Origin: a virus
Lineage: Duplodnaviria > Caudoviricetes
Direction: 5' to 3' (one strand)
Length of the DNA: 52,459 nt
IMG/VR virus record: IMGVR_UViG_3300009155_004654
Location: 1 to 52,459 of that record
Position 1 is the stretch's first letter. The number at the start of each line of letters is the position of its first letter. Positions 13,072 to 43,794 of the stretch are shown here, in pieces. Below the pieces are notes generated by a model. It was not told where the DNA came from. It made no database searches and was given only the letters and a program-made list of their open reading frames with translations. Both the position numbers and the translations under genes were made by a program.

Positions 13072-13366
13072 AAGAAAGAGGAAAGAAAATGGTTGACGGT
13101 CTACGAGGTAATGGTTAGTTGAAAAGGGCTGGAGAGAAAACCAGCGAGAACGAAAAAAGAAAAAAGACCCTTGACGAAGTTTGAGGGTCGGTTAAGGAGA
13201 GAAGGTCAACGCGAGGAAAGAAAGCTCCTCGCCACATAAAAGAGGTCAAGGCGGAAAGTTGAAAAAAACTTCCTTGACGCTCCTCCCAAAGCGGTTAAGA
13301 AGAAAGGGCTGGAGGGAAATGGTTCCCGAAGGCTCGCTGATAAACTCCCGACTACGGACGTTCAAA

Positions 13367-13768: not shown

Positions 13769-13785
13769 AAGCTGAGGGAGATTAA

Positions 13786-13827
13786 GAGGTTGGAGGCTCA
13801 AAAGGCTTCCAGCCTCTTTCTCTTTTA
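13786..13827 (+). terminator. Probable terminator
   Basis: GAGGTTGGAGGC..GCTTCCAGCCTC stem followed by TTTCTCTTTT. Confidence 0.6.
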
Positions 13828-13973
13828 TGCGGGGGGAAGAAATCCAGGTTCTTCCTCCTCTTTGAGAAATCTTCAAAAGCTCCTTGACGGTCTTTGAGGA
13901 GCGGTTAAGTAGAAAGGGCTGGAGGGGAATGGTCCTCGCCAGCAAACGTCCTTCTTCAAAAAGGGTATTTCAA

Positions 13974-14210
13974 ATGGCTTTCAACGCCGACGAGCTTGCT
14001 GCTCACATCTTTTCCGACGAAAACCCCGTAAACATCGTGGGGCGTTATCGTCTTGCTATGAAGAGCCTTCTTATTGACGCGAGGACGCTTAGCCCCGAAA
14101 ATGTTGAGCTTCAAGCTATCGTTTTTGAACGTCTCCGCGCTGCGCTTGATAGCGAGGAATACAAGGCGTATGAGAAGGCTTTGCTTGCCTCTTGGGCGAA
14201 CAAGGGCTAG
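13974..14210 (+). CDS. Hypothetical early protein
   Basis: Start moved to 13974 (MAFNAD); own promoter 13884. Confidence 0.7.
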   Translation: MAFNADELAAHIFSDENPVNIVGRYRLAMKSLLIDARTLSPENVELQAIVFERLRAALDSEEYKAYEKALLASWANKG

Positions 14211-14443
14211 GCATTAAGAGGTTCAAGGAAATCTTCAAAAGACCCTTGCGCCTCTTGATGGAGCGGTTAAGTAGAAAGGGTGAGGGTCGGAACCCCTCCA
14301 GCTTCCCGAAAACGAGGCAGGGACGAGAAAGAAGAAACTTTCAAGAAAGTCCTTGCCGCTTCTCCAAGACCCGTTAATAGAAAGGGGCTGAGGGAATCCT
14401 CCCGACGCTTCTTCAACAACCAGCAATCAAGGTAATCCACCAA

Positions 14444-15529: not shown

Positions 15530-15545
15530 TCAGTAAGGCAGCATA

Positions 15546-15588
15546 AACCCTCGCTTTTCCTTCGGGAGAGGCGGGGGTTTTCTGCTTT
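15546..15588 (+). terminator. Rho-independent terminator (cUUCGg loop)
   Basis: AAACCCTCGCTTTTCC-TTCG-GGAGAGGCGGGGGTTT then T run. Confidence 0.85.
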
Positions 15589-15721
15589 TAATCCGCAAAT
15601 TTCAAGGGCATTTCAGTTCTTGAAATCCGAAAGCTGAAAGCCAGGAGGAGGGGCGACGAAGCCAGGACGATGCCCCTTCCCGAAGGTGAGGGACGGTCCC
15701 GAAGATGCCCCTAGCCCGCAA

Positions 15722-15798
15722 TAGGAAGCGATATGGGACGCGAGGAGGGGCAGGGGTAGGGTGAGGGTAGGGGTCGCAGGGAGGGTCGCCCATATCGC
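15722..15798. repeat. G-rich-loop hairpin element, copy 1
   Basis: Stem GCGATATGGG/CCCATATCGC enclosing GGAGGGGCAGGGGTAGGGTGAGGGTAG. Confidence 0.75.
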
Positions 15799-16009
15799 AA
15801 TAGGTTTAGCAAGTAGTTTTGGACCTCCGCGCAACCTCTTTTGAAAGAAAAAGTTGAAATAAAGTCCTTGACAAAATAAATATTCTTTTTGCTCTTGACT
15901 TTTAGAAGATCCAAAGTGGCGTTACTTGTTCGCAGGTAACGCAAGATCGGAACATCCAGCCCCTAAGCCTACTCCACGGGTCACCCTCAAAGACCTCCGC
16001 TAAGGGCTC

Positions 16010-16086
16010 TAGGAACGCTTATGGGAGCGATGGAGGGTAAGGGGTAGGGTAAGGTAGCCCCCCACGGTCCACGAGGCTCATAAGCG
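16010..16086. repeat. G-rich-loop hairpin element, copy 2
   Basis: Stem CGCTTATGGG/CTCATAAGCG enclosing GGAGGGTAAGGGGTAGGGTAAGGTAG; compensatory changes versus copy 1. Confidence 0.75.
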
Positions 16087-16207
16087 AAATGGGAGCGTCG
16101 AGAACTTTTGGGGAGTCGTCAAGGGCAAAGAAGAAGAAAGTTGAAGAAAGTTTCTCCTTGACGATGGAGGTGGACCCGTTAAGAGAAGAACGAAGGAGAA
16201 AGAAGAA

Positions 16208-16384
16208 ATGAACAAGCTCGTCATGATCTATCTGATCGCGGTTTCTCACCTTTCCAACATCGTGCCCCTTGCCATTCCCGAAGGCGAGGTTATTGGAGGT
16301 GGGGCTGAGATCGAAGCGGTTTACGTTCCTGCTGGCTACGCTGGTCCTATCGTCGCAGCCCCTTTCAGCGAAAAGGTTTTCTAA
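16208..16384 (+). CDS. Small hydrophobic protein (58 aa, not in ORF track)
   Basis: Promoter 16158, SD AAGGAG; MNKLVMIYLIAVSHLS.. Confidence 0.6.
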   Translation: MNKLVMIYLIAVSHLSNIVPLAIPEGEVIGGGAEIEAVYVPAGYAGPIVAAPFSEKVF

Positions 16385-16435
16385 AAGACCTTGACGCTTC
16401 TCCTAAACGCATTAAGAGGTTCAAGAGGAGGGAAG

Positions 16436-16630
16436 ATGAAGGTTTCGTTCAACGTCCTGTATGCCCAAATTGAGGCAAAGAGGAAGGCTGACCCGCGTTC
16501 CAGCCCTAGCCGCGATAATCATTCCTTCAAGGACATTCTTGCCTTGATGAAGGAGATCGAAAAGGATATCGAAAGCGCGGGCTGGAGCGTTCCCGAATAC
16601 TACGATCAAGTCAAGACCATGCCTCTCTGA
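16436..16630 (+). CDS. Hypothetical early protein
   Basis: Start moved to 16436; promoter 16391, SD GAGGAGG. Confidence 0.68.
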   Translation: MKVSFNVLYAQIEAKRKADPRSSPSRDNHSFKDILALMKEIEKDIESAGWSVPEYYDQVKTMPL

Positions 16631-16693
16631 AAAAAGAGAGGGGGGGCCTTGCGCTTATACACCAACCCGTTAAGAGAAGAAGACGGAGGCAAG

Positions 16694-17287
16694 ATGGAAG
16701 CGGTAGAGAGGATCGCAGCAATCAAGGCTAACCCTGCCTTTGAGGGTCTTTCGCAGAGTCACAAGGATTTCGTTGATTCTGTCGAAAAGTGGGTTAAAAC
16801 GCGCCCTCTTTCGATGGGTCAAGAGGCATGGATCGAGCGGATCGAAAAAGTTCTCAAACCTGTTGACAATAGCTGGTTTGACCTTAACGACGAGGAATTC
16901 CAGAAGAAGCGTGCTTATGCGATCCAGCACTACAAGGCAACGGGCTACTACCTTCATCAAGTTTCCCGTATGGAAGCCGATCCTGCCTACATGCCCGAAA
17001 AAGAACTTTGGGATAGAATGTGGGGAAACAAGTATATCAACGCCGCTTTTAAGCGATGGACGGCTGGAGCCCGTTTCAAGATCGGTGATATGGTAGTCAA
17101 CAAATATTATCCTAGTTACTACGGAAAGATCGCGGTTATTGAAAATGTTGTTTGGAATAGTTCGGGCTGGACATATGGCGCACTTCCGCTTAATCCCGGT
17201 GAACATTATATTAATCAAAAGATGCAGCAGATTGACGAAAAGCACTTTCTACCTGCTTCTAATCGCAATCTCAAAAACCGCATCTAA
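16694..17287 (+). CDS. Early protein with C-terminal KOW/SH3-like domain
   Basis: Start moved to 16694; internal RFKIGDMVV motif. Confidence 0.72.
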   Translation: MEAVERIAAIKANPAFEGLSQSHKDFVDSVEKWVKTRPLSMGQEAWIERIEKVLKPVDNSWFDLNDEEFQKKRAYAIQHYKATGYYLHQVSRMEADPAYMPEKELWDRMWGNKYINAAFKRWTAGARFKIGDMVVNKYYPSYYGKIAVIENVVWNSSGWTYGALPLNPGEHYINQKMQQIDEKHFLPASNRNLKNRI

Positions 17288-17373
17288 TCATTAGCGAGCC
17301 GTCAAGGTCTTTCTCTAAAAAAGATTGGCCTTGACGGTTCTTCGTAGCGGGTTAACTTCAAGGAGGAGGGAAG

Positions 17374-17541
17374 ATGGAAGAGAACTTCAAGAACGAAGAC
17401 CACACGGCTTTCTGTGATATGGTGCTAGGCTCCGATAACGGTTTTAGCGAGGGAGATCGTCAAGTTCTTTTTCTCCACGCTCTTATCGAAAAGTATAGCG
17501 TCCCCCTTGATAATCCCCGCGAAAACGTTACTATCTTCTAG
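17374..17541 (+). CDS. Small protein (55 aa, not in ORF track)
   Basis: Promoter 17331, SD AAGGAGG. Confidence 0.6.
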   Translation: MEENFKNEDHTAFCDMVLGSDNGFSEGDRQVLFLHALIEKYSVPLDNPRENVTIF

Positions 17542-17551
17542 GAGGTTCTAA

Positions 17552-17761
17552 ATGGCTAAGGCAAAGAAGGCTAGGCGTGTCTATCCTCTAATTAATGAAA
17601 TTGTTGAGCTTATCCCGCAAAAGCGCAGGGCAAAGGTTACTTTTCTTGACCCTCGCATTATCAAGGTCCGCTGGATGGATAACGAAGCGGTTGAGGAATT
17701 CAGCACAAGTTATTTCGTTGATACATATTGGACTATTGCCGTGAGGAATTACGATGTATAA
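17552..17761 (+). CDS. Small SH3-like protein
   Basis: SD AGGAGG; IKVRWMD. Confidence 0.6.
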   Translation: MAKAKKARRVYPLINEIVELIPQKRRAKVTFLDPRIIKVRWMDNEAVEEFSTSYFVDTYWTIAVRNYDV

Positions 17762-17966
17762 GAAGCCTGCTCCCCCGAAGCTTGGAACCCTTGTTGTTGC
17801 TCAAAATATTGATGGGACTATGTGTAATGGATATGTAAGCGGATTTATGGGCGATATTGCTAAGGGTAGATATTGTATTGAAATTACGTTCCATGAAGGA
17901 AAGCAAAATCATCGTTTCTTCTCAGTTGGTGAGGAAGGCAAACTATGGCGCAAGCTCCCCTCGTAA
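17754..17966 (+). CDS. Small KOW/SH3-like protein
   Basis: PKLGTLV..GYVS variant. Confidence 0.55.
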   Translation: MYKKPAPPKLGTLVVAQNIDGTMCNGYVSGFMGDIAKGRYCIEITFHEGKQNHRFFSVGEEGKLWRKLPS

Positions 17967-18169
17967 ATATTGGAGATTTGGTATGGGTTAAAATCCAGCT
18001 TGGAAGGGATCATTATACCTGCTTGACTGCTTTTATCTTTGCGGTTAACTATTGGGATGGGCAAAACGTATCATCTTATTATGCTGAATATTTAGAACAA
18101 AATAATCCTCAAACAACTGCCCTTTATGGGTTTGACTTCAACGATATATGGGGGAAGCTTGAAACCTAA
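17945..18169 (+). CDS. Small KOW/SH3-like protein
   Basis: VNIGDLVWV. Confidence 0.65.
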   Translation: MAQAPLVNIGDLVWVKIQLGRDHYTCLTAFIFAVNYWDGQNVSSYYAEYLEQNNPQTTALYGFDFNDIWGKLET

Positions 18170-20827: not shown

Positions 20828-21991
20828 ATGGAAGCTGAAGCAATCAACTACGATCTGAATATGGATCTCTACTACCTTCTTCGGGATGAACCGTTCTTCG
20901 CTACGTTCTCCCGCAACATCAACAAGTCCGCAACAACCGCTATTCCTACTGCTGGCGTTCGTATCAACAAGGAAACGCAGCAATTTGAAATGGTCTACAA
21001 TCCCTCCTTCTTCGCGGGTCTGGAAGATAAGGAGCGAATCGATGTGCTCAAGCATGAATTCTATCATGTTATCTTTGAGCATGTTACAGGTCGTCTTCCC
21101 CCCGAAGGTATGACGAAGATGTGGAATATTGCTACGGACCTTGCGATTAATTCCCACCTTCCGAACATTCCAAAAATGGCTTGTATCCCAGGCGTTGGAA
21201 AGTTTGAAAAGTATCCTGCTGGTCTTTCGGGTGAGCAGTATTTCGATCTTCTTAAGGAAGACCCCGAAATGAATAAGGAACCTCAAGAGGGAGAAGGCGA
21301 TCCTAACTTTGACGATCACGAAGGTTGGGGCGATGGTGAGATTGATAACACCATGAAGGAGATCGCTAAGGAAAACCTCAAGGAAGCTCTTAAGAAGGCA
21401 GCTAAGGAAGCTTCTTCTAAGAATTGGGGTTCTGTCCCTGCTGATGTTCGCAAGCAAATTATGGACAAGCTTGAAGCAACTGTCGATTGGCGTAAGATGC
21501 TTCGATACTTTATCAAGACCTCTCAGCGTGCGGATAAGAACTCTACTGTTCGTAAGGTCAATAAGCGGTTCCCAAGGATCCACGCTGGCAAGAAGGTCAA
21601 TCGTGTTGCGAAGATTGCGATTAGTATTGATCAGTCGGGAAGCGTTAGCGATGAAATGCTTGCTATGTTCTTCACTGAATTGAATGAGCTTTCTAACCTT
21701 GCTACCTTCACTGTGATTCCTTTTGATACACGGGTTGATGAAGCCCTTGTGTATGAATGGAAGAAGGGCAAGCGTCATGTATGGGAACGGGTCATGTGTG
21801 GTGGGACTTGCTTCAACGCTCCTACCAAGTTCGTTAACGAGGGCGATTGGGATGGTCATATTGTCCTTACGGATATGTGTGCTCCTAAGCCGATCTCTTC
21901 TCGTCCCTCCCGCATGTGGATGACAGACAAGGCTAACGCTGCTAATCCCTACTTCAAGACAAATGAGCTTGTGGTTGCGGTTGGTAAGTAA
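20828..21991 (+). CDS. DUF2201-type metallopeptidase + VWA domain protein (MoxR partner)
   Basis: TAGV..VLKHEFYH..WNIATDLAIN zincin-like N-domain; MIDAS IDQSGS, GGT, LTD. Confidence 0.9.
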   Translation: MEAEAINYDLNMDLYYLLRDEPFFATFSRNINKSATTAIPTAGVRINKETQQFEMVYNPSFFAGLEDKERIDVLKHEFYHVIFEHVTGRLPPEGMTKMWNIATDLAINSHLPNIPKMACIPGVGKFEKYPAGLSGEQYFDLLKEDPEMNKEPQEGEGDPNFDDHEGWGDGEIDNTMKEIAKENLKEALKKAAKEASSKNWGSVPADVRKQIMDKLEATVDWRKMLRYFIKTSQRADKNSTVRKVNKRFPRIHAGKKVNRVAKIAISIDQSGSVSDEMLAMFFTELNELSNLATFTVIPFDTRVDEALVYEWKKGKRHVWERVMCGGTCFNAPTKFVNEGDWDGHIVLTDMCAPKPISSRPSRMWMTDKANAANPYFKTNELVVAVGK

Positions 21992-22355: not shown

Positions 22356-22841
22356 ATGAAACTTACAGAAAGACATATACGTTCAATCGTTAAAGAAGAA
22401 ATTAAATCTATTATGGTTGAAGGATTGTTCGATATATTTAGATCAAAACCAAAGGAAGAAGGGGCATTACAAAAGGCATCAACCGCTTTGGGCGACACCA
22501 ATCCAAAAACTCCCCTAATCCAAGTTCTTTATAAGTTAATGGATAGAGCTTCAACAATCTCTCATAAGGGTGGAATGGTTAGATTTACCGATCCAAGAGC
22601 GTATGAAGAAAGCATGAGAAAAACTGAAATCTTGGTTAATCATTTTGAGGATGTATTAAAGGGATTAAATGAAAAAGAATTCGCGAAGGTTTATAATGAA
22701 GCAGATAAACTTGGGAACTTTCAAGATGCTACTTTTCTTCGACACAATATGAATTCTTTTTATTCTGGAGATCCTTATATTGATAGCAGATCTTCTTATC
22801 ATCAAATATGGGATAAGAAGCTGGAACTTATAAAAGTTTAA
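22356..22841 (+). CDS. Putative internal head protein (MKLTE tag)
   Basis: MKLTERHIRSIVKEEIKSIMVE; late motif 22321. Confidence 0.6.
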   Translation: MKLTERHIRSIVKEEIKSIMVEGLFDIFRSKPKEEGALQKASTALGDTNPKTPLIQVLYKLMDRASTISHKGGMVRFTDPRAYEESMRKTEILVNHFEDVLKGLNEKEFAKVYNEADKLGNFQDATFLRHNMNSFYSGDPYIDSRSSYHQIWDKKLELIKV

Positions 22842-22864
22842 AACATATAATACTATTTATAATC

Positions 22865-23341
22865 ATGAAAACATTATTAGAAAATTGGAATAGATTCTTA
22901 ACGGAAGGAATGCAAGATACATCTGATACTTTGTTTTTTCTTAAATCTCCTTGGGGAATGAAAAGAGGAAAATTTGATCATGTTGGATTTGTTTTGAAAG
23001 ATGGAAGAATGAAAGATATGTCTGGTCATAGAGGGGAAATGATTGCTCCTATTATAAGTACTTGGGAACAATTATTGACCGATGATGTATTCTGGGAAGG
23101 TTGGCCCGATAATGAAGACAAACCACAATCTCCCGATGAAGCAAAAAAAATTGGGATTTATCAAATAATGAAACTTCCAAAGGTTGTTGATGTTCCAGAT
23201 GAGATTGTTTGTAGAACATCCGATAAATCAAAAGTATCGGAGAATTGTGGAAGCTTTGTTTTTAATGTTCTTCATAATGCTGGTATTAATCCAGATTTTT
23301 TGAAAGATGATAAATATATTGTTGTTGGAAAGCAATTTTAA
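22865..23341 (+). CDS. Permuted papain-like (NlpC/P60) enzyme with ENW tag
   Basis: FDHVGF (His) precedes ENCGSFVFNVLHNAGI (NC catalytic Cys). Confidence 0.65.
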   Translation: MKTLLENWNRFLTEGMQDTSDTLFFLKSPWGMKRGKFDHVGFVLKDGRMKDMSGHRGEMIAPIISTWEQLLTDDVFWEGWPDNEDKPQSPDEAKKIGIYQIMKLPKVVDVPDEIVCRTSDKSKVSENCGSFVFNVLHNAGINPDFLKDDKYIVVGKQF

Positions 23342-23366
23342 CTAATGTATTACAAGGATTACGATT

Positions 23367-23930
23367 ATGAAAACATTACTAGAAAATTGGAATAGATTCT
23401 TATTAAGAGAAAAACTTGAACAAGGCCAAAAGATTTATTATTGGCAAGCTCAAGGTGAATGGAGAGGGGACAAACCAATTGAATATGGTGTTACTCACGT
23501 TCCCCAAGCAATACCATTACAAAAAACAATTGGTTCATCATTAAATCACAAATTAGAAGATTTACTTGAAAGAGCAAGATTAGAAGTTGACCCAAGCCTT
23601 CCAAGTCGTTTATCATGCGCTTATGTATGCGACCTTATACAAAAAGGATATTTTGAACATGAAAAATCTTTAAGATCTTATTGTAAGTGTGGAAGTGAAA
23701 AATTAATTACTTATAAGGTAATAATAAAACCTGGAGCAACAATATACAGAGCTAATTCCGCAATATTGGGACATATTATTTATGACCAAACAAATCTTAA
23801 AGATAAAATGGAAGCAGCAAGATTTTACTGGAAAGGGATTCATCCAGAAGATCCAAGTCCATCACCCGAAGTTCTTGTATCTCCTGCAAGCTCCGTTATA
23901 ATAGTTGGAAAGTTGGAGGGCGGCTGTTAA
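23367..23930 (+). CDS. ADP-ribosyltransferase-like protein (DUF2441-like) with ENW tag
   Basis: LERAR....PSLPSRLSCAYV..YKV..AARFYWKG..PEVLV pattern. Confidence 0.6.
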   Translation: MKTLLENWNRFLLREKLEQGQKIYYWQAQGEWRGDKPIEYGVTHVPQAIPLQKTIGSSLNHKLEDLLERARLEVDPSLPSRLSCAYVCDLIQKGYFEHEKSLRSYCKCGSEKLITYKVIIKPGATIYRANSAILGHIIYDQTNLKDKMEAARFYWKGIHPEDPSPSPEVLVSPASSVIIVGKLEGGC

Positions 23931-23934
23931 TATT

Positions 23935-24804
23935 ATGAAACTCTTAATAGAAAACTGGAAGAAATATCTCCTTAACGAAATTGAAATTGTCGATAATGAA
24001 GAAGAAGAGGAATATGATTATGATGCCGAACTTCTTAAACAACAAGGAGAAACAGAAAGCAAATTCTTTGGTCCTGTATTGGAAAGGGCACAAGAGCTTG
24101 CAGTTGATGTTAGCAGATTAATGTTCAGCTTTGAGGATTATGGCGAGGGAGGTCAAATGCTTAGAAGAGCGGTTGAAAAAAAAGGAGAAAAGCTTGGATT
24201 AAATGTTAAATATCTTGGCTCTGGTTCTTCTCGCTTTACTATCTCCGTTAATGATGATTTTGTTATTAAAGTTGCAAAGGAATTGAGATCTACTGACATA
24301 ATCCAAATGAATAAGGATGATTATAATCTTGGAACGAATCCTAGCTTTGGAGGAATATTTCCAAGAGTTTATAAGCATGGTCCTCAAGGGGAAAAGTATC
24401 ATCCCGATTTCTTTTGGATTATAATGGAAAAAGCAACTCCCCTTGTTGATAATAAAAAAATTGCTTCATTCTTTAAAAGCTCTTTTGTTGATTCCGATAA
24501 CTTGGACGAAAGTGAAGCTTATGCTTTTCTTATATTAATGTCCTCATGTATCGTTCGTGGTAGCCTTTATTATGAAGTAAAACCAAGAATTATAAAGTTA
24601 TTGCAGAAAAAAAATCCAAATATGTCAACAATTGATTTTGATATGATAAACCAAGATTTCATGAGATATTCGGACAACTTTAGAAAGATTGTTAGAATCA
24701 CAAAAGAATATCCAAACTTAGATGTTATGGAAGCCTTAGCAATTGGAAACTGTGGAGTTGGATATGATGGAAGATTTGTTATTATTGATTCTTCCATATT
24801 TTAG
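23935..24804 (+). CDS. Atypical protein kinase-like protein 1 with ENW tag
   Basis: LGSGSSR Gly loop, FVIK, FPRVY, WIIMEK hinge, GNCG, IIDSS; start moved to 23935. Confidence 0.75.
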   Translation: MKLLIENWKKYLLNEIEIVDNEEEEEYDYDAELLKQQGETESKFFGPVLERAQELAVDVSRLMFSFEDYGEGGQMLRRAVEKKGEKLGLNVKYLGSGSSRFTISVNDDFVIKVAKELRSTDIIQMNKDDYNLGTNPSFGGIFPRVYKHGPQGEKYHPDFFWIIMEKATPLVDNKKIASFFKSSFVDSDNLDESEAYAFLILMSSCIVRGSLYYEVKPRIIKLLQKKNPNMSTIDFDMINQDFMRYSDNFRKIVRITKEYPNLDVMEALAIGNCGVGYDGRFVIIDSSIF

Positions 24805-24868
24805 TAATAATACAAAATAATATACTATTTATTGATGAATTAATCACAATATAAAGGAGATTGATTAA

Positions 24869-25192
24869 ATGGCTAAATTAACAGAATCATATTTAAGAGG
24901 TATGATAAAACAAGTAATGAGCGAAATGCAAGATAGATACGAAAGTGGCTATGGTATAGAAAGTGATTTTAATTATGGATTAGAAGCAGGTTATGGCGAT
25001 ATGGTAAAACCTGGCTTTAGAGATCTTGAAGAAATGGCTGATGAATTAGGTTTACCAGTAGGAGAAATCGAAAGTGTTGCTCTAAAATTAGGACACCAAA
25101 TACAAACTCACGGTGGAAGAAGATTAATTAAACTTAAAGATGATGGTCTTTCCGAATCCCGTAAATCAAAACTTGCTCCAAAACGTAGATAA
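24869..25192 (+). CDS. Putative internal head protein (KLTE tag)
   Basis: MAKLTESYLRGMIKQVMSE; possible HTH LEEMADELGL. Confidence 0.6.
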   Translation: MAKLTESYLRGMIKQVMSEMQDRYESGYGIESDFNYGLEAGYGDMVKPGFRDLEEMADELGLPVGEIESVALKLGHQIQTHGGRRLIKLKDDGLSESRKSKLAPKRR

Positions 25193-25216
25193 TATTTAAT
25201 ATTCTTCGTTAAGAAA

Positions 25217-25248
25217 AAAATCCCTAGGAGAAATTCTGGGGATTTTTT
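25217..25248 (+). terminator. Terminator (repeat copy 1)
   Basis: AAAATCCCTAGGA-GAAA-TTCTGGGGATTTT. Confidence 0.8.
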
Positions 25249-25290
25249 ATTGTTTATGATCTATTTAATTTAGCAAAAGGAAGTATTATT

Positions 25291-25890
25291 ATGAGAATAA
25301 CTGAATTACAATTAAGAACTGTAATAAGAGAAGAATTAACAAATTATCTAAATGAAGATAAACAAGTTCTTGAAGAAGGAAAAATACATAATTTTATTGC
25401 TGGTATTCTTGCTGCTGTCGCAATTGGTGGTGGTATAGGAGCTAAGATGAATTCTGCACCAACCTCAAGAGAAGTTGTTCAAACGTCTGTCACAGCAAGC
25501 GATACAGCAGCAACTAATGTAGAAAAAATTATTGAGCAAAATCAAATAAAATTTAACAAAGAAGATAGTTCATTTTCAATTGGTAAAGAAAATATTGGCA
25601 AACTATCTCCTAATGTTGTAAAATCAATTATGAGATTAAAAGAAATTGGCTATGTTGCTAATACTGGTGCCAACACAAATAAGTTAAGAGAGATAGAACA
25701 ACTTAAACAACAAATTGAGAAAGACGAAAGTTATAAACAAGTAGCAGCTAAAATACAAAATTTGAAAGGTATTCAAACAGACCAACAAAATAAAGCTCAA
25801 TCTATATTTGCAATTATTGTTGGTGCTGCTACGATTGGACTTCTATTTAATACTGTAGCTTCCATATATGCTGATGAAAAACGCAGATAA
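25291..25890 (+). CDS. MRITE-tag protein with two hydrophobic helices
   Basis: MRITELQLRTVIREELTNYLNE; FIAGILAAVAIGGGIG and IFAIIVGAATIGLLF. Confidence 0.62.
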   Translation: MRITELQLRTVIREELTNYLNEDKQVLEEGKIHNFIAGILAAVAIGGGIGAKMNSAPTSREVVQTSVTASDTAATNVEKIIEQNQIKFNKEDSSFSIGKENIGKLSPNVVKSIMRLKEIGYVANTGANTNKLREIEQLKQQIEKDESYKQVAAKIQNLKGIQTDQQNKAQSIFAIIVGAATIGLLFNTVASIYADEKRR

Positions 25891-25904
25891 TATTCTTCGT
25901 TAAA

Positions 25905-25935
25905 AAAATCCCTAGAAGAAATTCTGGGGATTTTT
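25905..25935 (+). terminator. Terminator (repeat copy 2)
   Basis: AAAATCCCTAGAA-GAAA-TTCTGGGGATTTT, near-identical to copy 1. Confidence 0.8.
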
Positions 25936-25948
25936 ACTATTTAATAAC

Positions 25949-26860
25949 ATGAAACTATTATTAGAAAACTGGCGTAGATTCCTCAAAGAAGAGGATCAAA
26001 AAGAATATGATTATGAAGCGGAAGTAGCAAAAGAAAAAGAAGAGCTTGAACAAAAGCACTTTGGAGCTTCTGCTAATATTGGTCAAATGTTATATGATAT
26101 TTATCAACAAGAAATGGTAACTCTTGAAGCACAGGGATATACATTTAAACAAATAATTGATAATCATCATAGAGAAATTTTTAATGTTATTCAAACAAAA
26201 TTTAATAATATTTCATCAAACAAAGTTTCTTCAAATAGTTTAGAAAATTCTGGTAGAGGAGCATTTCGTGCTGTTTTCTCTTGTGATAAAGATTTCGTAA
26301 TTAAGATTGATGCTTCTGTTGATGGTTCTGGAACGGATATGAACCGTGATGATCAAAAAGTTGGAACAAACCCAAAGTATAAAGATATTTTCCCTCGCGT
26401 GTTTAAGGTTGATCCAGAATATAAATGGATTGTTGCGGAGAAAGTAAAGCCTATTCGTCATAAGTTAACAATATGTGATGCCTTTCCAAACAGACATTTA
26501 AATAATGATCTTTCTAATACAGACAAATATGTTGAATTAATTAAAATTTGTATGATATATAAAGTAGCACAAATGAAAGGTGCTAAAAATACTATGGTAG
26601 AATGTGAAAACAAATTTTTTACTTTAAGAACTGTTTTGCATATTGGTCGTGCTGCTAAATTAGATACATTTATGGACATTATAAAAGAATTTAATAAATT
26701 GCCACTATTCTTCAAGATGGTTTCGGCAGTGTTTGAATTAGATGTTGACGTTGAAGAAATAATGACTGTAAGAAATTTAGGCACTGGAACTGATGATAGA
26801 TTGGTCATTCTTGATTCCTCAATAGCTGATTCTTTGGATAAAGGTAGAGCAGCATTTTAG
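25949..26860 (+). CDS. Atypical protein kinase-like protein 2 with ENW tag
   Basis: GRGAFR, FVIK, FPRVF, WIVAEK, RNLG, ILDSS. Confidence 0.75.
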   Translation: MKLLLENWRRFLKEEDQKEYDYEAEVAKEKEELEQKHFGASANIGQMLYDIYQQEMVTLEAQGYTFKQIIDNHHREIFNVIQTKFNNISSNKVSSNSLENSGRGAFRAVFSCDKDFVIKIDASVDGSGTDMNRDDQKVGTNPKYKDIFPRVFKVDPEYKWIVAEKVKPIRHKLTICDAFPNRHLNNDLSNTDKYVELIKICMIYKVAQMKGAKNTMVECENKFFTLRTVLHIGRAAKLDTFMDIIKEFNKLPLFFKMVSAVFELDVDVEEIMTVRNLGTGTDDRLVILDSSIADSLDKGRAAF

Positions 26861-26875
26861 AATACTATTTATTAT

Positions 26876-27070
26876 GTGTCCCTTCAAAGATTTAATGTTG
26901 GCGATGTTGTAAAGGCTTTAAACCTTAGTGAGTGTGGTTTTGTTGAAAAAATTGAAGAACATTACATAATAAGTGAAAAAAATTTTGTATTTGTTTATTA
27001 CATAAGAATGTTTCACGATAATGTTATTCATATATGGTTTTATGAGGATACATTAGTTAAGATATCGTAG
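26876..27070 (+). CDS. Small KOW/SH3-like protein
   Basis: RFNVGDVV..GFVEKI. Confidence 0.68.
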   Translation: MSLQRFNVGDVVKALNLSECGFVEKIEEHYIISEKNFVFVYYIRMFHDNVIHIWFYEDTLVKIS

Positions 27071-27072
27071 AG

Positions 27073-27279
27073 GTGCAAATGCAAAAGAACTTTGTTCGTT
27101 ATAAGTCCGAAGGATTGTTTGGAGATATTATAACAATTACAATTTCAAAAGACGAAGCAATTGAAAGACAAATTAGAGCTGGTGAAATAAACAATTATAT
27201 TTACAAGACCAGAGAAGAAGCACTTGAAGATTTTATGATTTGTAATTGGGCTTGGTTTTTTGAAGAAACGCCTTATTAA
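27073..27279 (+). CDS. Hypothetical protein
   Basis: Fills the gap between neighbours; SD GAGGTG. Confidence 0.6.
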   Translation: MQMQKNFVRYKSEGLFGDIITITISKDEAIERQIRAGEINNYIYKTREEALEDFMICNWAWFFEETPY

Positions 27280-27293
27280 TACTATTTAATAAC

Positions 27294-28256
27294 ATGAAAG
27301 TATTATTAGAAAACTGGAAAAAATATATTAAAGAAGAATTAAGACCAGAAGATTATGAAGATGAACCTTTTCCAGAAGAACAAAGCGAAGAAGAAAAAGC
27401 AGAAGCTTATTTAGGAAATCCAAAATCTATTGGTGAATTTATTTATACAGCTTTTCGTGAAGAACTTGAAAAGCAGCCAAATGATACCGAAGCTCAACTT
27501 TGGTCCGATAGAATTGTAAGTGATGCAAACTATAAAATTAAACAAAAATTTCCAAATGTAAAATATCTTGGTAATGGTGTATTTAGAACTGCTTACACAT
27601 TAAATAAAAATTTAATTATAAAAGTTAATACTTCTTTTACAACTGATAGTGGACAAATGATGAATAAAGAAGATTTCACATTAAGTCGTGATCCTCAAAC
27701 TTCACAAATGTTTCCAAGAGTTTATTCTCACGATCCAGATTTTAATTGGATTGTTATGGATTTGGTTTATCCAATTGTAACACCAAAAGAATTTTATTCA
27801 TTTTTTCCTAACGATATCATAGCTCCTATCTTATCTAAAGAGCCTATGCTTTATAGATTAATTTTTCATAATTCAATTCGACTTGAAATAGCAAGAATGA
27901 AAAAGAATAAAAAATTATTTGTTGAACTTAATGATATATATAAAACAAAATTATCTGCTGGAATTAAAAACCATTTAGGTAAGAAAGTAAGTATGGATAA
28001 AATTGTTAGTGGATTTAAACCTTTATTTTTGCAAGTATGTAATGCTATTCTTAAACATAATATAAAAATAGAAGAAGTAAGAGCAAATAATACAGGGTTT
28101 ACAATCGATCAAAGTGGTAATAAAAGTTTTGTTTTGCTAGATTCCTCTATTGATGCAAGTATTAAAAAAGCACTTAAACAACCAGAACCTAAAGTGGCTC
28201 CAACAAAACAAAAGAAACAAATAGTAAATGCTGCAACTACTACAATTAGAAGATGA
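27294..28256 (+). CDS. Atypical protein kinase-like protein 3 with ENW tag
   Basis: LGNGVFR, LIIK, FPRVY, WIVMD, NNTG, LLDSS. Confidence 0.75.
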   Translation: MKVLLENWKKYIKEELRPEDYEDEPFPEEQSEEEKAEAYLGNPKSIGEFIYTAFREELEKQPNDTEAQLWSDRIVSDANYKIKQKFPNVKYLGNGVFRTAYTLNKNLIIKVNTSFTTDSGQMMNKEDFTLSRDPQTSQMFPRVYSHDPDFNWIVMDLVYPIVTPKEFYSFFPNDIIAPILSKEPMLYRLIFHNSIRLEIARMKKNKKLFVELNDIYKTKLSAGIKNHLGKKVSMDKIVSGFKPLFLQVCNAILKHNIKIEEVRANNTGFTIDQSGNKSFVLLDSSIDASIKKALKQPEPKVAPTKQKKQIVNAATTTIRR

Positions 28257-28471
28257 ACTACAAAATTGGAGATATGATTGAAGTAAGTTTATCTCCAAAA
28301 AAAGGTTACTCTCAAAAGGTGCCAGCAGTATTGGGTTTGATTGTTGATATTGATGATACAAAATTGAACTTTGTAAAAACTGCTTATTATATTTTATTAA
28401 TCAAATCTCTTAATGAAACAAAAATATGGATTGAGTTAGATAATTACAAAGTTAAAAAATTAAACACTTGA
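28253..28471 (+). CDS. Small KOW/SH3-like protein
   Basis: MNYKIGDMIEV..GLIVDI. Confidence 0.68.
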   Translation: MNYKIGDMIEVSLSPKKGYSQKVPAVLGLIVDIDDTKLNFVKTAYYILLIKSLNETKIWIELDNYKVKKLNT

Positions 28472-29056: not shown

Positions 29057-29653
29057 ATGCTTACTGCTATCGGCGACGTAATGAGAAGATGTTACGAAAA
29101 AGGTTGGATAACAACAAGAGATGGCAACATTTCATTAAGAAGAAAAAACTCAAATATATTATATGTAACTCCTTCTGGTTGGAGAAAAACAATCATTCAC
29201 CCAGAACATATAGTTAAATGTAAATTAGATGAATATAAAGAATTAATAGTTCCACAAAATTCTAAGCCTTCTGGTGAATTATATATGCATTATTTAATCC
29301 AAAGAGACACGCAAATAACAAGAGCAGTTTTACATGTTCATGCTACCAATATTGTAGCTGCTATGTATGCTGGTTTAAGCTTGCCACAAATAGCTGCTGA
29401 GTTTCCAGAAATACATAGATATACAAGAGTTGGTGCTTCTGTTTCTGCTGTTCCTGCTTTATCAAAAGAACTTGCGATAGAAACAGCGGATAACTTATAT
29501 GTAAAAGAAAATGGTTCTTATGAATTTGATATAGTAGGTCAAAAAAATCATGGTGTATGTGCTGTAGGTAAAGACCCTTGGGATGCTTATGAACATGTTG
29601 AAAGATTAGACCATATATGTGAAATTGTTTTAAAAGGAACATTATTGAGGTAA
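29057..29653 (+). CDS. Class II aldolase/adducin family protein
   Basis: DGNIS, VTPSG, PSGE, LHVH, NHG metal ligands. Confidence 0.9.
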   Translation: MLTAIGDVMRRCYEKGWITTRDGNISLRRKNSNILYVTPSGWRKTIIHPEHIVKCKLDEYKELIVPQNSKPSGELYMHYLIQRDTQITRAVLHVHATNIVAAMYAGLSLPQIAAEFPEIHRYTRVGASVSAVPALSKELAIETADNLYVKENGSYEFDIVGQKNHGVCAVGKDPWDAYEHVERLDHICEIVLKGTLLR

Positions 29654-29655
29654 AA

Positions 29656-30363
29656 ATGAATTTAACAGAACAACAAAGACACGCAATTGATTGTGTTGTA
29701 GCTATATTTGAAACAGGAAAAGTTCCATCAGCTAAATCATACTCAACTTGTTCAGTTCTCGATGATGGGGCTGGAATAAGTTATGGAAAGCACCAGTGTA
29801 CGGACAAAGCAGGTTCATTAGATTTGGTTTGTAAAAAATATATTGAATTAGGTGGACAACATGCAGAGCCATTAAAACAATATATGAATTATCTTTCTAC
29901 AAATCAATCTTCTAAATTTGGTTCAAGAAGAGAAAATTATCCAACTTGGCTTGTGTCTTTAATCAATCTTTTGAAATCTGCTGGTGAAGATTCAATCATG
30001 CACAAAGCTCAAGATGAAGTATTTGATGTAAACTATTGGCTTCCAGCAGTTAATCACTGTAAAAATATTGGTATTACATCAGCTTTAGGACATTTAGTAA
30101 TTTATGATACTTGTATTCATTCTGGTCCTGGTAGAGTTTCTTCTTTAAGACAATTATTCCCAGAGAAATCACCAGCTAACGGTGGCGATGAAAAAGCTTG
30201 GGTTCTTGCTTTCTTAAATGCCAGAAGAAATTGGCTTGCTGCTAATTCAAATCCATTAGTTCAAAAAACAGTTTATAGAATTGATGCTATGAAAGCTATT
30301 GCTGATTCTGGTAATTGGGAATTAAAATTACCTATGACAGTAAGAAATGTTAAAATTGCCTAA
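29656..30363 (+). CDS. Chitosanase (GH46)-like lysozyme, probable endolysin
   Basis: IFETG..DDGAGISYG..AQD..YWLPA..IYDTCIHSG..FLNARR. Confidence 0.75.
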   Translation: MNLTEQQRHAIDCVVAIFETGKVPSAKSYSTCSVLDDGAGISYGKHQCTDKAGSLDLVCKKYIELGGQHAEPLKQYMNYLSTNQSSKFGSRRENYPTWLVSLINLLKSAGEDSIMHKAQDEVFDVNYWLPAVNHCKNIGITSALGHLVIYDTCIHSGPGRVSSLRQLFPEKSPANGGDEKAWVLAFLNARRNWLAANSNPLVQKTVYRIDAMKAIADSGNWELKLPMTVRNVKIA

Positions 30364-30388
30364 TTAATAGTGATATAAGGATTATAAA

Positions 30389-30709
30389 ATGTTAACAGAA
30401 ATAAAGCTTAGGCAAGTAATTCGCAAATATATTCTAAACGAAATGGGAAGATTTGATCCTATGCTAAATAAGATGTCCAATATTCGTAGAGATATACCAG
30501 GTTTTGATATACCAAGTTCTGAAAAAAGAGTAAGTCAATTTAAATCTGATCTTGGAATGACTTCTGATAAAAGTGTCAATAAAGAAGATGTTAAAGCAAA
30601 TTTAAAAGTTTTAGCTGATTTATTAGGGTGGCAAGATTTTGATCCATTAATAGCAACACCAGAAGCTATTAATAACTTAATTCATTACGCTATTGAAAGA
30701 ACCAGATAA
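30389..30709 (+). CDS. Putative internal head protein (LTE tag)
   Basis: MLTEIKLRQVIRKYILNE. Confidence 0.55.
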   Translation: MLTEIKLRQVIRKYILNEMGRFDPMLNKMSNIRRDIPGFDIPSSEKRVSQFKSDLGMTSDKSVNKEDVKANLKVLADLLGWQDFDPLIATPEAINNLIHYAIERTR

Positions 30710-30740
30710 CCTAGATAGAGATCCCACGGAGAGGTGTTTA

Positions 30741-31145
30741 ATGGAACGTCCTTCGTGGGATTTTATTTGGTCTTCTTTTGCTTCTACAATCGCTCAACGT
30801 TCTATGGACCCTAACTTCAAGGTGGGTGCCGTAATCGTCCCAGAAGACAATACAGGTGTCCTAGCGATTGGATATAACGGTGATCATAAAGGTGGAACAA
30901 ACTGTAGGGATAGTGATGAAGCTGGTTCCTCTGGTTTTATTCACGCTGAAATAAATGCACTTATTAAGATGGATTTTAATAACCCAAAGAGAAAGAAAAT
31001 GTATGTAACTCTTTCTCCTTGTAAGATGTGCGCGAAAGCAATTATTAATGCTGATATAAAAGAAGTTTATTACATACAAGAATACCGTGATGATGCAGGA
31101 ATTAAATTACTACAAAATCACGGTATTAAGGTTTGTAAGATTTAA
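30741..31145 (+). CDS. dCMP deaminase
   Basis: KVGAVI..GYNG..HAEINA..SPCKMCAK; start moved to 30741. Confidence 0.92.
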   Translation: MERPSWDFIWSSFASTIAQRSMDPNFKVGAVIVPEDNTGVLAIGYNGDHKGGTNCRDSDEAGSSGFIHAEINALIKMDFNNPKRKKMYVTLSPCKMCAKAIINADIKEVYYIQEYRDDAGIKLLQNHGIKVCKI

Positions 31146-43786: not shown

Positions 43787-43794
43787 TAAATAAA

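What the first reader, a model, noticed from the sequence alone, without database searches (positions are those of the whole stretch)
23935..28256. Three paralogous kinase-like proteins with coordinated non-canonical active-site residues
All three keep the Gly loop (GSGSSR/GRGAFR/GNGVFR), the beta3 Lys, the hinge and the catalytic-loop Asn. However, the catalytic Asp appears replaced by Glu (MEALAIGN, EEIMTVRN, EEVRANN), the alphaC Glu by Asp (NKDD, NRDD, NKED) and DFG by DSS. The same substitutions in three diverged paralogs argue for selection rather than decay. These may be a new kinase-fold chemistry (an altered phosphoacceptor, or nucleotidylation as in some pseudokinases) delivered from the virion.
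Basis: partly seen in the sequence, partly recalled or inferred. Interest (0 to 1): 0.72.

Follow-up and report, generated by a model that had tools for sequence, protein, structure and literature searches.

The report
Three phage kinase-like paralogs, catalytic glutamate
A freshwater T4-type phage fragment encodes three diverged copies of an unannotated, stripped-down kinase-like enzyme related to the T7 phage kinase; their unusual glutamate at the catalytic position is an interchangeable variant of the usual aspartate, not a sign of new chemistry.

Summary
Three paralogs (289, 303 and 320 aa; 29-31% identical) carry exactly the motifs quoted. They belong to a large, unannotated family found only in viral and metagenomic data (phrog_4301; no Pfam or NCBIfam hit). 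AlphaFold2 models are confident (pLDDT 88 and 94). Their only structural matches are kinase-fold proteins: APH(2''), MTR kinase, PsiK, CK1, TBK1 and T7-type phage kinases. TM-scores are low (0.26-0.37), and the chain ends just after the Mg-binding Asp.

Profile alignments equate the Glu with the HRD Asp (T7 kinase D195) and DSS with DFG (T7 kinase DPV).

The "new chemistry" reading is not supported. Across 160 family domains the catalytic acid is D in 93 and E in 66, with at least 17 switches on the tree. The 12 closest orthologs of paralog 2 all have Asp. A tree-aware test finds no coupling with the helix-C D/E position.

Most likely these are active phosphotransferases with ordinary chemistry. 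Their N-termini (MKLLLENW...LxE) are swappable leaders resembling the T4 capsid-targeting sequence, and syntenic relatives encode the T4 prohead protease and Gp23. Delivery from the virion is therefore plausible but unproven.

The parts
23935..24804 (+). Kinase-like paralog 1 (289 aa). Leader A is MKLLIENWKKYLLNE. The chain ends 4 residues after D285 of the DSS motif.
25949..26860 (+). Kinase-like paralog 2 (303 aa). Leader A is MKLLLENWRRFLKEE. AF2 model pLDDT 88.3.
27294..28256 (+). Kinase-like paralog 3 (320 aa). Leader A is MKVLLENWKKYIKEE. AF2 model of the core has pLDDT 93.9. 67% identical to its ortholog in the syntenic 184-kb relative G001.
24217..24234 (+). Gly-rich loop GSGSSR of paralog 1. 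The equivalents are 26252-26269 (GRGAFR) and 27570-27587 (GNGVFR). The family signature is GxGx[FSYW]R, with an invariant Arg where kinases have the third Gly.
26303..26305 (+). beta3 Lys codon (K119) of paralog 2. The equivalents are 24268-24270 and 27621-27623. Lys in 160 of 160 family domains.
24730..24732 (+). Glu codon (E266, GAA) of paralog 1 at the catalytic-loop acid position, 6 residues before the Asn.
26756..26758 (+). Glu codon (E270, GAA) of paralog 2. It aligns with the HRD Asp of MAP kinases and with T7 kinase D195. Orthologs have Asp here. A synonymous A>G variant at 26758 occurs in other runs.
28074..28076 (+). Glu codon (E261, GAA) of paralog 3, 5 residues before the Asn. It is Glu also in orthologs P0162, P0164 and the G001 copy.
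26813..26815 (+). Mg-binding Asp codon (D289, start of DSS) of paralog 2. The equivalents are 24787-24789 and 28140-28142. Asp in 160 of 160 family domains. It aligns with the DFG Asp and with T7 kinase D213 (DPV motif).
25937..25944 (+). Promoter-like motif CTATTTAA, 4 nt before the ATG of paralog 2. The same motif lies at 27282-27289, 4 nt before paralog 3.
25904..25935 (+). Terminator-like hairpin just upstream of paralog 2. A near-identical copy lies at 25215-25248.
22356..25890 (+). Neighbouring cargo-like ORFs that share the two leader types. Leader A: 22865-23341 and 23367-23930. Leader B (M[RK][IL]TExxLRxxI[RK]EE): 22356-22841, 24869-25192 and 25291-25890.

Best explanation
The three genes encode diverged paralogs of a large, phage-restricted and so far unannotated family of minimal protein-kinase-like (PKL) enzymes (phrog_4301). 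The family is distantly related to the T7 gp0.7 (T7K) type of phage kinase.

Each protein has, in order:
- a short N-terminal leader;
- an acidic linker and a helical N-domain with a conserved (Y/H)FG;
- a canonical five-strand N-lobe with helix C;
- a hinge (WIxxE);
- a helical insert of about 100 residues;
- the catalytic loop ([DE]-x4-5-N-x-G);
- the Mg-binding D-[SAYP]-[SG].

The chain ends almost immediately after that, with no activation segment.

Because every ATP- and Mg-binding residue is kept, they most likely bind Mg-ATP and transfer the gamma-phosphate by ordinary kinase chemistry. The loop carboxylate, Glu here and Asp in many relatives, would serve as the usual acid/base (inferred). 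Glu is a tolerated alternative to Asp in this family, not a marker of a new reaction.

The leader (MKLLLENW...[LI]xE) is a modular address tag. It is most likely a capsid-targeting and prohead-protease-cleaved propeptide like the T4 CTS. If so, the kinases would be loaded into the head and enter the host with the DNA. There they would phosphorylate host proteins early, as T7K does after early expression. All of this is inferred. The substrates are unknown.

The confidence given (0.6) is for the core claim: active kinase-fold phosphotransferases with ordinary chemistry and interchangeable Asp/Glu. I put the virion-delivery part alone at about 0.4 to 0.45.
For: **Family**
- 1047 representative hits at E<=1e-3.
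- 51 of 65 aligned members match phrog_4301, of unknown function. 4 of 65 match phrog_18305 'kinase', and 1 each match the T7-type phrog_15752 and phrog_11167.

**Fold**
- AF2 gives pLDDT 88.3 / pTM 0.82 for full paralog 2 and pLDDT 93.9 / pTM 0.87 for the core of paralog 3.
- The listed PDB Foldseek matches are nearly all kinase-fold proteins: APH(2''), MTR kinase, PsiK, Cph001, TBK1, HIPK3, CK1, TTBK1, PRPK and Lpg2603. The exceptions are a few SAICAR synthase rows. Best E-values are 2e-4 and 8e-4.
- BFVD matches include annotated T7-type protein kinases and A0A7L7SMK1. PMC13645617 treats A0A7L7SMK1 among T7K homologues (passages read).

**Motif equivalences**
- PDB profile search: SteC N-lobe at E=0.0034. 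MAP kinase catalytic loop plus DFG at E about 0.2, aligning Glu with the HRD Asp.
- hhalign against 12 T7K homologs: 142 colinear columns. The pairs are GxGxF, VIK = K93, E270 = D195, N276 = N200 and D289 = D213 of DPV.

**Conservation in 160 domains**
- K119 in 160; D289 in 160; G104, R107, N132 and W160 in 159 each.
- The catalytic position is acidic in 159 (D 93, E 66).

**D/E interchange**
- At least 17 changes on the tree.
- 12 of 12 close orthologs of paralog 2 have Asp.
- A synonymous variant at the Glu codon occurs in other runs.

**Leader**
- 5 window ORFs carry leader A and 6 carry leader B.
- Among the top 150 family representatives, 54 carry leader A, 14 carry leader B, 80 have neither and 2 are partial. 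67 of the 68 leader-bearing proteins have [LIV]xE within residues 7-22.
- The syntenic relative G001 (87% identity in the neighbouring DUF2201 protein) encodes a T4 prohead protease and Gp23. Its leader-B ORFs flank the protease.
- The T4 CTS rules and the gp21 cleavage after Glu are taken from PMC9026906 (passages read).
Against: **Weak links to known kinases**
- No Pfam kinase model matches any of the three proteins at E<=1. None matches any of 65 family members at E<=0.01. NCBIfam gives nothing relevant.
- hhalign probability against T7K is only 19% (E 0.0012).
- Foldseek TM-scores are 0.24-0.37 with large rmsd, so only the N-lobe and the catalytic segment superpose well.

**Departures from the kinase core**
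- The chain lacks helix F after the Mg-binding Asp. Scheeff and Bourne count helix F as part of the universal kinase core (PMC1261164, passages read).
- The same paper calls D166 the most conserved residue of the superfamily, so Glu there is unusual. Activity has not been measured.
- I could not inspect model coordinates, so the geometry of the Glu, N132, D135 and R107 is unverified.

**Gaps in the delivery argument**
- The window fragment (23% complete) contains no prohead protease.
- No virion proteomics exist.
- Paralogs 1 and 2 are acidic (pI 5.0 and 6.0), unlike the basic T4 internal proteins.
- The T4 late promoter TATAAATA is not enriched.
Confidence: 0.6

Rival explanations
1. They are small-molecule kinases of the APH, choline-kinase or MTR-kinase type. 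They would phosphorylate a metabolite, sugar, lipid, nucleotide or antibiotic-like compound and not proteins.
For: - The best PDB fold matches are small-molecule kinases: APH(2''), MTR kinase, PsiK, capreomycin, corramycin and macrolide phosphotransferases.
- Like those enzymes, the proteins have no activation segment, and the window sequences end soon after the Mg-binding Asp.
- The window is rich in sugar and metabolic genes: glycosyltransferases, a GH46 hydrolase, an aldolase and a cytidylyltransferase.
Against: - No hit to the Pfam APH, choline-kinase or other small-molecule-kinase models.
- TM-scores are only about 0.3.
- The C-terminal substrate-binding helical subdomain of APH enzymes is absent, because the chain ends.
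- The nearest viral structural and profile relatives are T7-type protein kinases, which share the truncated architecture.
- Three diverged paralogs carrying cargo-type leaders fit host-protein targeting better.
Confidence: 0.18
2. The Glu, Asp and DSS substitutions would re-tool the site for another phospho-acceptor, or for nucleotidyl transfer (AMPylation or UMPylation) as in SelO-type pseudokinases.
For: - Glu sits at the position of the most conserved Asp of the superfamily.
- An invariant Arg replaces the third Gly of the Gly loop, and an invariant Asn lies in helix C. Both are family-specific and could contact nucleotide phosphates differently.
- Nothing here measures the reaction.
Against: - Asp and Glu alternate freely: D 93 / E 66, with at least 17 switches. 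Orthologs of paralog 2 have Asp. The Glu therefore cannot define a distinct reaction.
- There is no coupling with the helix-C D/E position.
- The Lys, Asn and Mg-binding Asp constellation for normal ATP orientation is fully kept.
- DFG+1/+2 grades into DYG, DAG, DPG and DFG in relatives.
- T7K, with DPV in place of DFG, is a conventional and very active Ser/Thr/Tyr kinase (PMC13645617, passages read).
Confidence: 0.08
3. They are catalytically dead pseudokinases or ATP-binding scaffolds. They would serve as internal head proteins, or as decoys or binders of host factors.
For: - Glu at the D166 position would class them as pseudokinases under the usual sequence rules.
- The C-lobe is truncated.
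- Several leader-bearing neighbours have no enzymatic signature.
Against: - Strict conservation of Lys (160 of 160), the Mg-binding Asp (160 of 160), the loop acid (159 of 160) and Asn/His (155 of 160), at about 25% overall identity, is what purifying selection on catalysis would produce.
- Pseudokinases typically lose several of these residues.
Confidence: 0.08

Closest known systems
Phage T7 protein kinase gp0.7 (T7K; Pfam PF27024)
   Same: - Both are phage-encoded minimal kinase domains with an N-terminal helical extension, no activation segment, and a non-DFG Mg-binding motif (DPV in T7K, DSS here).
- All catalytic motifs align colinearly.
- They hit the same BFVD proteins, and one PF27024 cluster is among the ESM Atlas neighbours.
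- T7K acts early against host proteins and defence systems (PMC13645617, passages read).
   Different: - hhalign probability is only 19%, and the family carries no precomputed PF27024 hit.
- The Gly loop ends in an invariant Arg; T7K has Ser there.
- The catalytic acid is Glu in the window proteins and D195 in T7K.
- There is no C-terminal shut-off or DNA-binding domain.
- T7K is made after infection, whereas these proteins carry cargo-type leaders.
- Three paralogs are present instead of one gene.
Aminoglycoside 2''-phosphotransferases and related small-molecule kinases (MTR kinase, PsiK, Cph001)
   Same: They are the best matches among solved structures (E 2e-4 to 3e-3). The N-lobe superposes at 3.5 A over 87 columns with APH(2'')-IVa. 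Both groups have a short segment after the Mg-binding Asp.
   Different: - TM-scores are 0.3 or lower overall, and there is no Pfam APH hit.
- The C-terminal substrate-binding helices are missing.
- I recall a His-x-Asp start to the APH catalytic motif. That is not from a call. It is absent here.
T4 internal proteins and Alt with the capsid targeting sequence (CTS)
   Same: - A short N-terminal leader is shared by otherwise unrelated proteins and ends in [LI]xE, the gp21 cleavage pattern.
- Relatives encode a gp21-type protease and Gp23.
- An enzyme as cargo has a precedent in Alt (PMC9026906, passages read).
   Different: - The leader sequences differ from the T4 CTS.
- Two leader types coexist in this phage, and a third (…KLA…) occurs on family members elsewhere.
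- Neither packaging nor cleavage has been shown.
- Paralogs 1 and 2 are acidic.
Salmonella effector kinase SteC (PDB 8jbi), N-lobe
   Same: It is the best sequence-profile hit in the PDB (E 0.0034). The match covers the Gly loop, the beta3 VxK and the following Asn/acid segment. It is also a delivered, atypical minimal kinase; that description is my recollection, not from a call.
   Different: Only about 50 residues align. SteC was not fetched or studied further here.

Membership tests
Protein kinase-like (PKL) superfamily, universal core (Scheeff and Bourne 2005, PMC1261164) | Gly-rich loop between strands 1 and 2 | tested here: met
   The family has GxGx[FSYW]R. G104 is present in 159 of 160 domains and G102 in 145 of 160. 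The loop lies between predicted strands E99-103 and E107-111.
Protein kinase-like (PKL) superfamily, universal core (Scheeff and Bourne 2005, PMC1261164) | Strand-3 Lys (PKA K72) | tested here: met
   K119 is present in 160 of 160 domains. It aligns with the SteC VVK and with T7K K93.
Protein kinase-like (PKL) superfamily, universal core (Scheeff and Bourne 2005, PMC1261164) | Helix-C acid that pairs with the Lys (PKA E91) | tested here: inconclusive
   Predicted helix 127-139 carries the invariant N132 and an acidic residue at 135 (E 87 / D 73 of 160).
Protein kinase-like (PKL) superfamily, universal core (Scheeff and Bourne 2005, PMC1261164) | Catalytic-loop Asp (PKA D166) | tested here: not met
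   All three window proteins have Glu. In the family the position is D 93 / E 66 / M 1. A carboxylate is conserved, but not Asp.
Protein kinase-like (PKL) superfamily, universal core (Scheeff and Bourne 2005, PMC1261164) | Catalytic-loop Asn (PKA N171) and Mg-binding Asp (PKA D184) | tested here: met
   N276 is N in 134, H in 21, Q in 4 and S in 1 of 160. D289 is present in 160 of 160. Both align with the corresponding MAP kinase and T7K residues.
Protein kinase-like (PKL) superfamily, universal core (Scheeff and Bourne 2005, PMC1261164) | Helix F following the Mg-binding strand | tested here: not met
   Paralog 1 ends 4 residues after D285 of the DSS motif. Paralog 2 has only one short helix (293-302) after it. 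The helices that could substitute lie before the catalytic loop.
Protein kinase-like (PKL) superfamily, universal core (Scheeff and Bourne 2005, PMC1261164) | Overall fold similarity to solved kinases | tested here: inconclusive
   Nearly all listed PDB matches are kinase-fold proteins with probability up to 1.0. However, E-values are only 2e-4 to 1e-2 and TM-scores 0.25-0.37.
Eukaryotic-type protein kinases (Pfam Pkinase) | Match to the family model; activation segment with APE | tested here: not met
   No kinase Pfam hit for the three proteins at E<=1. None for 65 of 65 family members at E<=0.01. There is no sequence after DSS that could form an activation segment.
T7 gp0.7 kinase family (PF27024) | Match to the family profile; DP(V) motif | tested here: not met
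   Precomputed Pfam is '-' for all 34 listed family proteins. hhalign probability is 19%, E 0.0012. The motif here is DSS, while 12 of 160 relatives have DP. This is at best a distant relationship, not membership.
T4-type CTS-bearing head cargo | Short N-terminal leader shared by unrelated proteins and ending in [LI]xE | tested here: met
   In the window, 5 ORFs carry leader A and 6 carry leader B. 67 of 68 leader-bearing family representatives have [LIV]xE within residues 7-22.
T4-type CTS-bearing head cargo | Phage encodes a gp21-type prohead protease | tested here: inconclusive
   None was found in the 52-kb fragment, which is 23% complete. It is present in 4 of 5 relatives' records, including the syntenic G001.
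T4-type CTS-bearing head cargo | Protein present in virions, with the leader removed | not testable with these tools
   No cultured relative was found. tblastn of paralogs 2 and 3 and of P0008 against 50,697 phage records gave no match.

The most novel reading that the evidence does not exclude
A widespread, unannotated family of T7K-like minimal kinases serves as capsid-loaded cargo. Each phage lineage fuses the same kinase core to its own address leader; three leader types were seen. T4-type freshwater and marine phages would then inject several diverged kinases (three here) with their DNA, pre-empting host defences before any phage gene is expressed. The family would also be the first kinase-fold group in which Glu routinely replaces the superfamily's most conserved catalytic Asp with activity retained.
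Probability: 0.28. Interest if true: 0.72.

Novelty: new variant of a known kind. Interest (0 to 1): 0.52.

Why it matters
Phage kinases have recently been shown to disarm many bacterial defence systems at once (T7K, PMC13645617). This family is far larger than the T7K group. It is invisible to Pfam, NCBIfam and PHROG annotation, and it occurs as multi-copy, fast-evolving cassettes in T4-type phages of natural waters.

If the leaders really load these proteins into heads, they would be pre-made, injected kinases. That would be a new delivery mode for a known anti-host weapon.

For kinase enzymology, the natural and repeated Asp/Glu exchange at the D166 position offers a ready-made test of how strictly that residue's geometry is required.

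Tried and rejected
- **Coupling of the two D/E positions.** The raw table looks coupled: (helix-C E, catalytic D) 72, (D,E) 51, (D,D) 21, (E,E) 15. On the tree the helix-C state changes at least 5 times and the catalytic state at least 17 times. In 5 independent supported pairs the helix-C state mostly does not differ. I therefore rejected coupling as a phylogenetic artefact.
- **T4 late promoter.** TATAAATA gives 11 matches against 7.9 expected, and none lies upstream of these genes.
- **Cultured relatives.** tblastn of paralogs 2 and 3 and of the core-only member P0008 against the phage collection gave no match.
- **Cellular genomes.** A pattern-based scan of genome contigs found no relative.
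- **The search for related loci with A2.** It failed because the alignment has no conserved stretch. I repeated it with A1.
- **PHROG scans of G001 ORFs.** 11 ORFs were scanned: 9 in the head-module region and 2 leader-A ORFs of the cargo cluster. There was one hit, to a family of unknown function. Their roles as scaffold or core proteins therefore rest on position only.
- **Small ORFs after paralogs 2 and 3** (26876-27070 and 28253-28471). They are not similar to each other, so they give no evidence for a conserved partner or inhibitor gene.
- **Expression.** No RNA holder is listed among the sequencing runs.
- **Literature on Glu at the HRD Asp.** One search for Glu replacing the catalytic Asp in atypical kinases found no paper containing 'replaced by glutamate' together with the other terms. 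This is one search, not proof of absence.
- **Literature on packaged kinases.** One search with the terms 'capsid targeting sequence', 'kinase' and 'phage' returned 7 papers, 6 listed. None, by title or abstract, describes a packaged kinase. The jumbo-phage overview PMC7824862 contains the term 'protein kinase' 0 times.
- **A malformed paper search** was not repeated.
- **Supplements.** Supplementary Table 8 of PMC13645617, which lists the T7K homologues, could not be seen. It may or may not include members of this family.

Full report
**1. What is there**

The + strand carries three ORFs: 23935-24804 (289 aa), 25949-26860 (303 aa) and 27294-28256 (320 aa). In a three-way alignment the other two are 31% and 29% identical to the first, with 48 invariant columns. 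A family profile finds exactly these three copies in the record.

The Glu is 6 residues before the Asn in paralogs 1 and 2, and 5 residues before it in paralog 3.

The window is a whole IMG/VR virus record of 52,459 bases, estimated 23% complete. Base composition is about 30% G+C around the genes.

**2. Family**

- No Pfam model matches the three proteins (E<=1). None matches any of 65 aligned relatives (E<=0.01). NCBIfam gives nothing relevant.
- PHROGs places them in phrog_4301, of unknown function. 51 of 65 relatives match it. 4 of 65 weakly match phrog_18305 'kinase', and 1 each match the T7-type kinase phrog_15752 and phrog_11167.
- A profile of the three finds 1047 representative proteins at E<=1e-3, 203 at E<=1e-10 and 26 at E<=1e-30.
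- The 34 proteins listed by the word-indexed search are unnamed, are called hypothetical, or (the window's own protein) carry no source or name. Those with a source listed are nearly all from metagenome collections, and one is listed only under NCBI.
- tblastn against 50,697 deposited phage genomes finds nothing. A pattern-limited scan of 185,579 species genomes also finds no relative.

**3. Fold**

- AlphaFold2 with a 65-row alignment gives pLDDT 88.3 / pTM 0.82 for full-length paralog 2. It gives pLDDT 93.9 / pTM 0.87 for the core of paralog 3.
- The predicted elements are a helical N-domain, then five strands with one helix between strands 3 and 4 (a kinase N-lobe). A helical region of about 100 residues follows, then a short turn, two strands and the end of the chain.
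- The listed PDB Foldseek matches are nearly all kinase-fold proteins: APH(2''), MTR kinase, PsiK, capreomycin, corramycin and macrolide phosphotransferases, TBK1, HIPK3, CK1, TTBK1, PRPK, Lpg2603 and CRAF. A few SAICAR synthases also appear. Best E-values are 1.9e-4 and 8e-4.
- TM-scores are only 0.25-0.37. The N-lobe alone fits well (rmsd 3.5 A over 87 columns with APH(2'')-IVa).
- Against predicted viral structures there are 45 matches at E<=1e-3. They include proteins annotated as T7-type protein kinases and A0A7L7SMK1. PMC13645617 discusses A0A7L7SMK1 among T7 kinase homologues (passages read).
- The ESM Atlas neighbours are viral hypothetical clusters plus one cluster that carries PF27024 Phage_T7_kinase on 44% of its members.

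**4. Residue equivalences**

- A 65-sequence profile against PDB sequences aligns the Gly loop and beta3 Lys with the Salmonella kinase SteC (E 0.0034).
- The same search aligns '...eeiregNlGi...rlViLDsSi' with the MAP kinase 'IIHRDLKPGNLAV...LKILDFGL' (E about 0.2). This puts the Glu on the HRD Asp, the Asn on the loop Asn, and the DSS Asp on the DFG Asp.
- hhalign against 12 T7 kinase homologs gives a colinear 142-column alignment: GxGxF, VIK = K93, E270 = D195, N276 = N200 and D289 = D213. Probability is only 19% (E 0.0012). D213-215 is the DPV motif that replaces DFG in T7K (PMC13645617).
- I could not inspect model coordinates, so these equivalences rest on profiles and secondary structure, not on measured geometry.

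**5. Is the Glu special?**

In 160 family domains that span the core:
- K119 and D289 are invariant. G104, R107, N132 and W160 are missed once each.
- The catalytic position is D 93 / E 66 / M 1.
- The helix-C position 135 is E 87 / D 73.
- DFG+1 is S 79 / Y 29 / A 23 / P 12 / L 4 / F 3, and DFG+2 is S 102 / G 51.
- The acid-to-Asn spacing is 5 or 6 with either acid.

The raw association between the two D/E positions (72/51/21/15) disappears on a tree built without those columns. The catalytic state changes at least 17 times and the helix-C state at least 5 times. In the 5 independent supported pairs that differ at the catalytic site, the helix-C residue mostly does not differ. This was a FastTree tree with 69 of 157 branches poorly supported, so the counts are rough.

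The cleanest case needs no tree. The 12 nearest orthologs of paralog 2 (52-67% identical) all read (E/D/Q)-D-(S/A)-I-(R/K/Q)-(P/Q)-x-N, where the window has E-E-I-M-T-V-R-N.

The orthologs of paralogs 1 and 3 keep Glu. Contigs from 3 of the 4 other runs that I laid carry GAA>GAG at the Glu codon of paralog 2, which is a synonymous change.

The carboxylate is therefore selected, while its side-chain length is not. Scheeff and Bourne call D166 the most conserved residue of the superfamily. They also note that an insertion between D166 and N171 is tolerated in one family (PMC1261164, passages read). Glu here is thus unusual for the superfamily but ordinary for this family.

**6. Leaders and context**

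- Five window ORFs begin MK(L/T/V)L(L/I)ENW. These are the three kinases plus 22865-23341 and 23367-23930.
- Six begin with a second leader, M(R/K)(I/L)TExxLRxxI(R/K)EE. The non-kinase carriers have no informative family hits.
- Among the top 150 family representatives, 54 carry the first leader, 14 carry the second, 80 have neither and 2 are partial. Many of the 80 start with a third, '...KLA...L...EEA' type of N-terminus.
- 67 of the 68 leader-bearing proteins have [LIV]xE within residues 7-22.
- The same kinase core therefore sits behind interchangeable leaders, and the same leaders sit on unrelated proteins. That is the behaviour of an address tag.
- In T4, the first 10 residues of IPIII suffice for head loading, and gp21 cleaves after Glu in a short motif (PMC9026906, passages read).

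Relatives:
- Four of five relatives' records (148-194 kb) encode a T4 prohead protease, and all four of those encode Gp23.
- One of them, G001, is syntenic with the window. The DUF2201 neighbour is 87% identical and the paralog 3 ortholog 67% identical, and the small ORFs, the GH46 gene and the leader-B ORFs lie in the same order.
- In G001 four leader-B ORFs flank the prohead protease. A separate cluster holds leader-A ORFs, including two kinases.
- The protease N-termini (MNKTLLREFFEL and MAKLLREYYEL) faintly resemble leader A.

All of this is circumstantial. No virion data exist, and the window fragment itself has no protease.

**7. Gene anatomy**

- CTATTTAW occurs 22 times, all on the + strand. 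12.65 are expected, and 1 of 100 shuffles reaches 22. It lies 4-35 nt before many start codons, including exactly 4 nt before paralogs 2 and 3.
- Near-identical terminator-like hairpins lie at 25215-25248 and 25904-25935.
- Contigs of other runs join across some of these cassettes. The short flanks mean these joints are only hints.
- Strains at 95-99% identity occur in the contigs of all four runs I laid, which come from four studies labelled freshwater or unspecified metagenome.

**8. Verdict**

The kinase-fold reading and 'selection, not decay' are supported. 'Coordinated substitutions' and 'new chemistry' are not.

The best reading is a family of active, minimal, T7K-like phosphotransferases in which Asp and Glu are interchangeable. 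They carry modular leaders that probably load them into T4-type heads. Substrate, activity and packaging are all unmeasured.

Noticed in passing
window 798-43775 (22 sites, e.g. 22853, 25937, 27282, 34191, 42382): The motif CTATTTAW occurs 22 times, and all 22 are on the + strand (12.65 expected). It mostly lies 4-35 nt upstream of start codons. For ORFs 22865, 25949 and 27294 it ends exactly 4 nt before the ATG, and there is no Shine-Dalgarno sequence. This could be a phage promoter that gives leaderless or near-leaderless mRNAs.
   Followed up: partly
window 1572-2237, 2239-2883, 22356-22841, 24869-25192, 25291-25890, 30389-30709: A second shared N-terminal leader, M(R/K)(I/L)TExxLRxxI(R/K)EE, sits on six otherwise unrelated ORFs. 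In the syntenic relative G001 the same leader type sits on four ORFs that flank the T4-type prohead protease (G001 153401, 154705, 155128, 156293).
   Followed up: partly
window 25215-25248 and 25904-25935: Two near-identical terminator-like hairpins bracket ORF 25291-25890. Contigs in two other runs join 25214>25902 and 25228>25917, which suggests the cassette is absent there. One contig joins 25934>26891, which would remove paralog 2. The flanks are short (30-61 letters), so these joints are hints only.
   Followed up: partly
proteins P0015 (923 aa), P0046 (969 aa), P0028 (638 aa), P0057 (587 aa) and others: Some relatives are long proteins with 4 to 8 separate matches to the kinase-core profile. 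These look like tandem arrays of kinase-like domains in one polypeptide.
   Followed up: no
family representatives such as P0022, P0054, P0069, P0077, P0079, P0091, P0104, P0112: A third N-terminal type (M..(L/I)..LA..L...(L/G)..EA..(V/L)..L) precedes the same kinase core in other phages. It resembles the 'KLA' leader noted by an earlier scan finding.
   Followed up: no
window 12001-18000: G+C rises to 0.47-0.54 against about 0.30 elsewhere. This region holds the MoxR/CobS-like AAA ATPase (14444-15529). A DUF2201 metallopeptidase-VWA gene (20828-21991, G+C about 0.42) lies further downstream. The region may be a compositionally foreign block.
   Followed up: no
window 29057-31145 and 42410-49396: Accessory genes of note: a class II aldolase, a GH46 chitosanase-like hydrolase, a PIN-PhoH fusion, and two large glycosyltransferases (GT4, and GT4+GT2).
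   Followed up: no
window 27294-28256 versus L001 10001-10951; window 20828-21988 versus L001 5101-6267: Paralog 3 is 67% identical to its G001 ortholog, while the neighbouring DUF2201 gene is 87% identical. Most of the differences fall in the helical insert (residues about 180-240), which is the likely substrate-facing part.
   Followed up: partly
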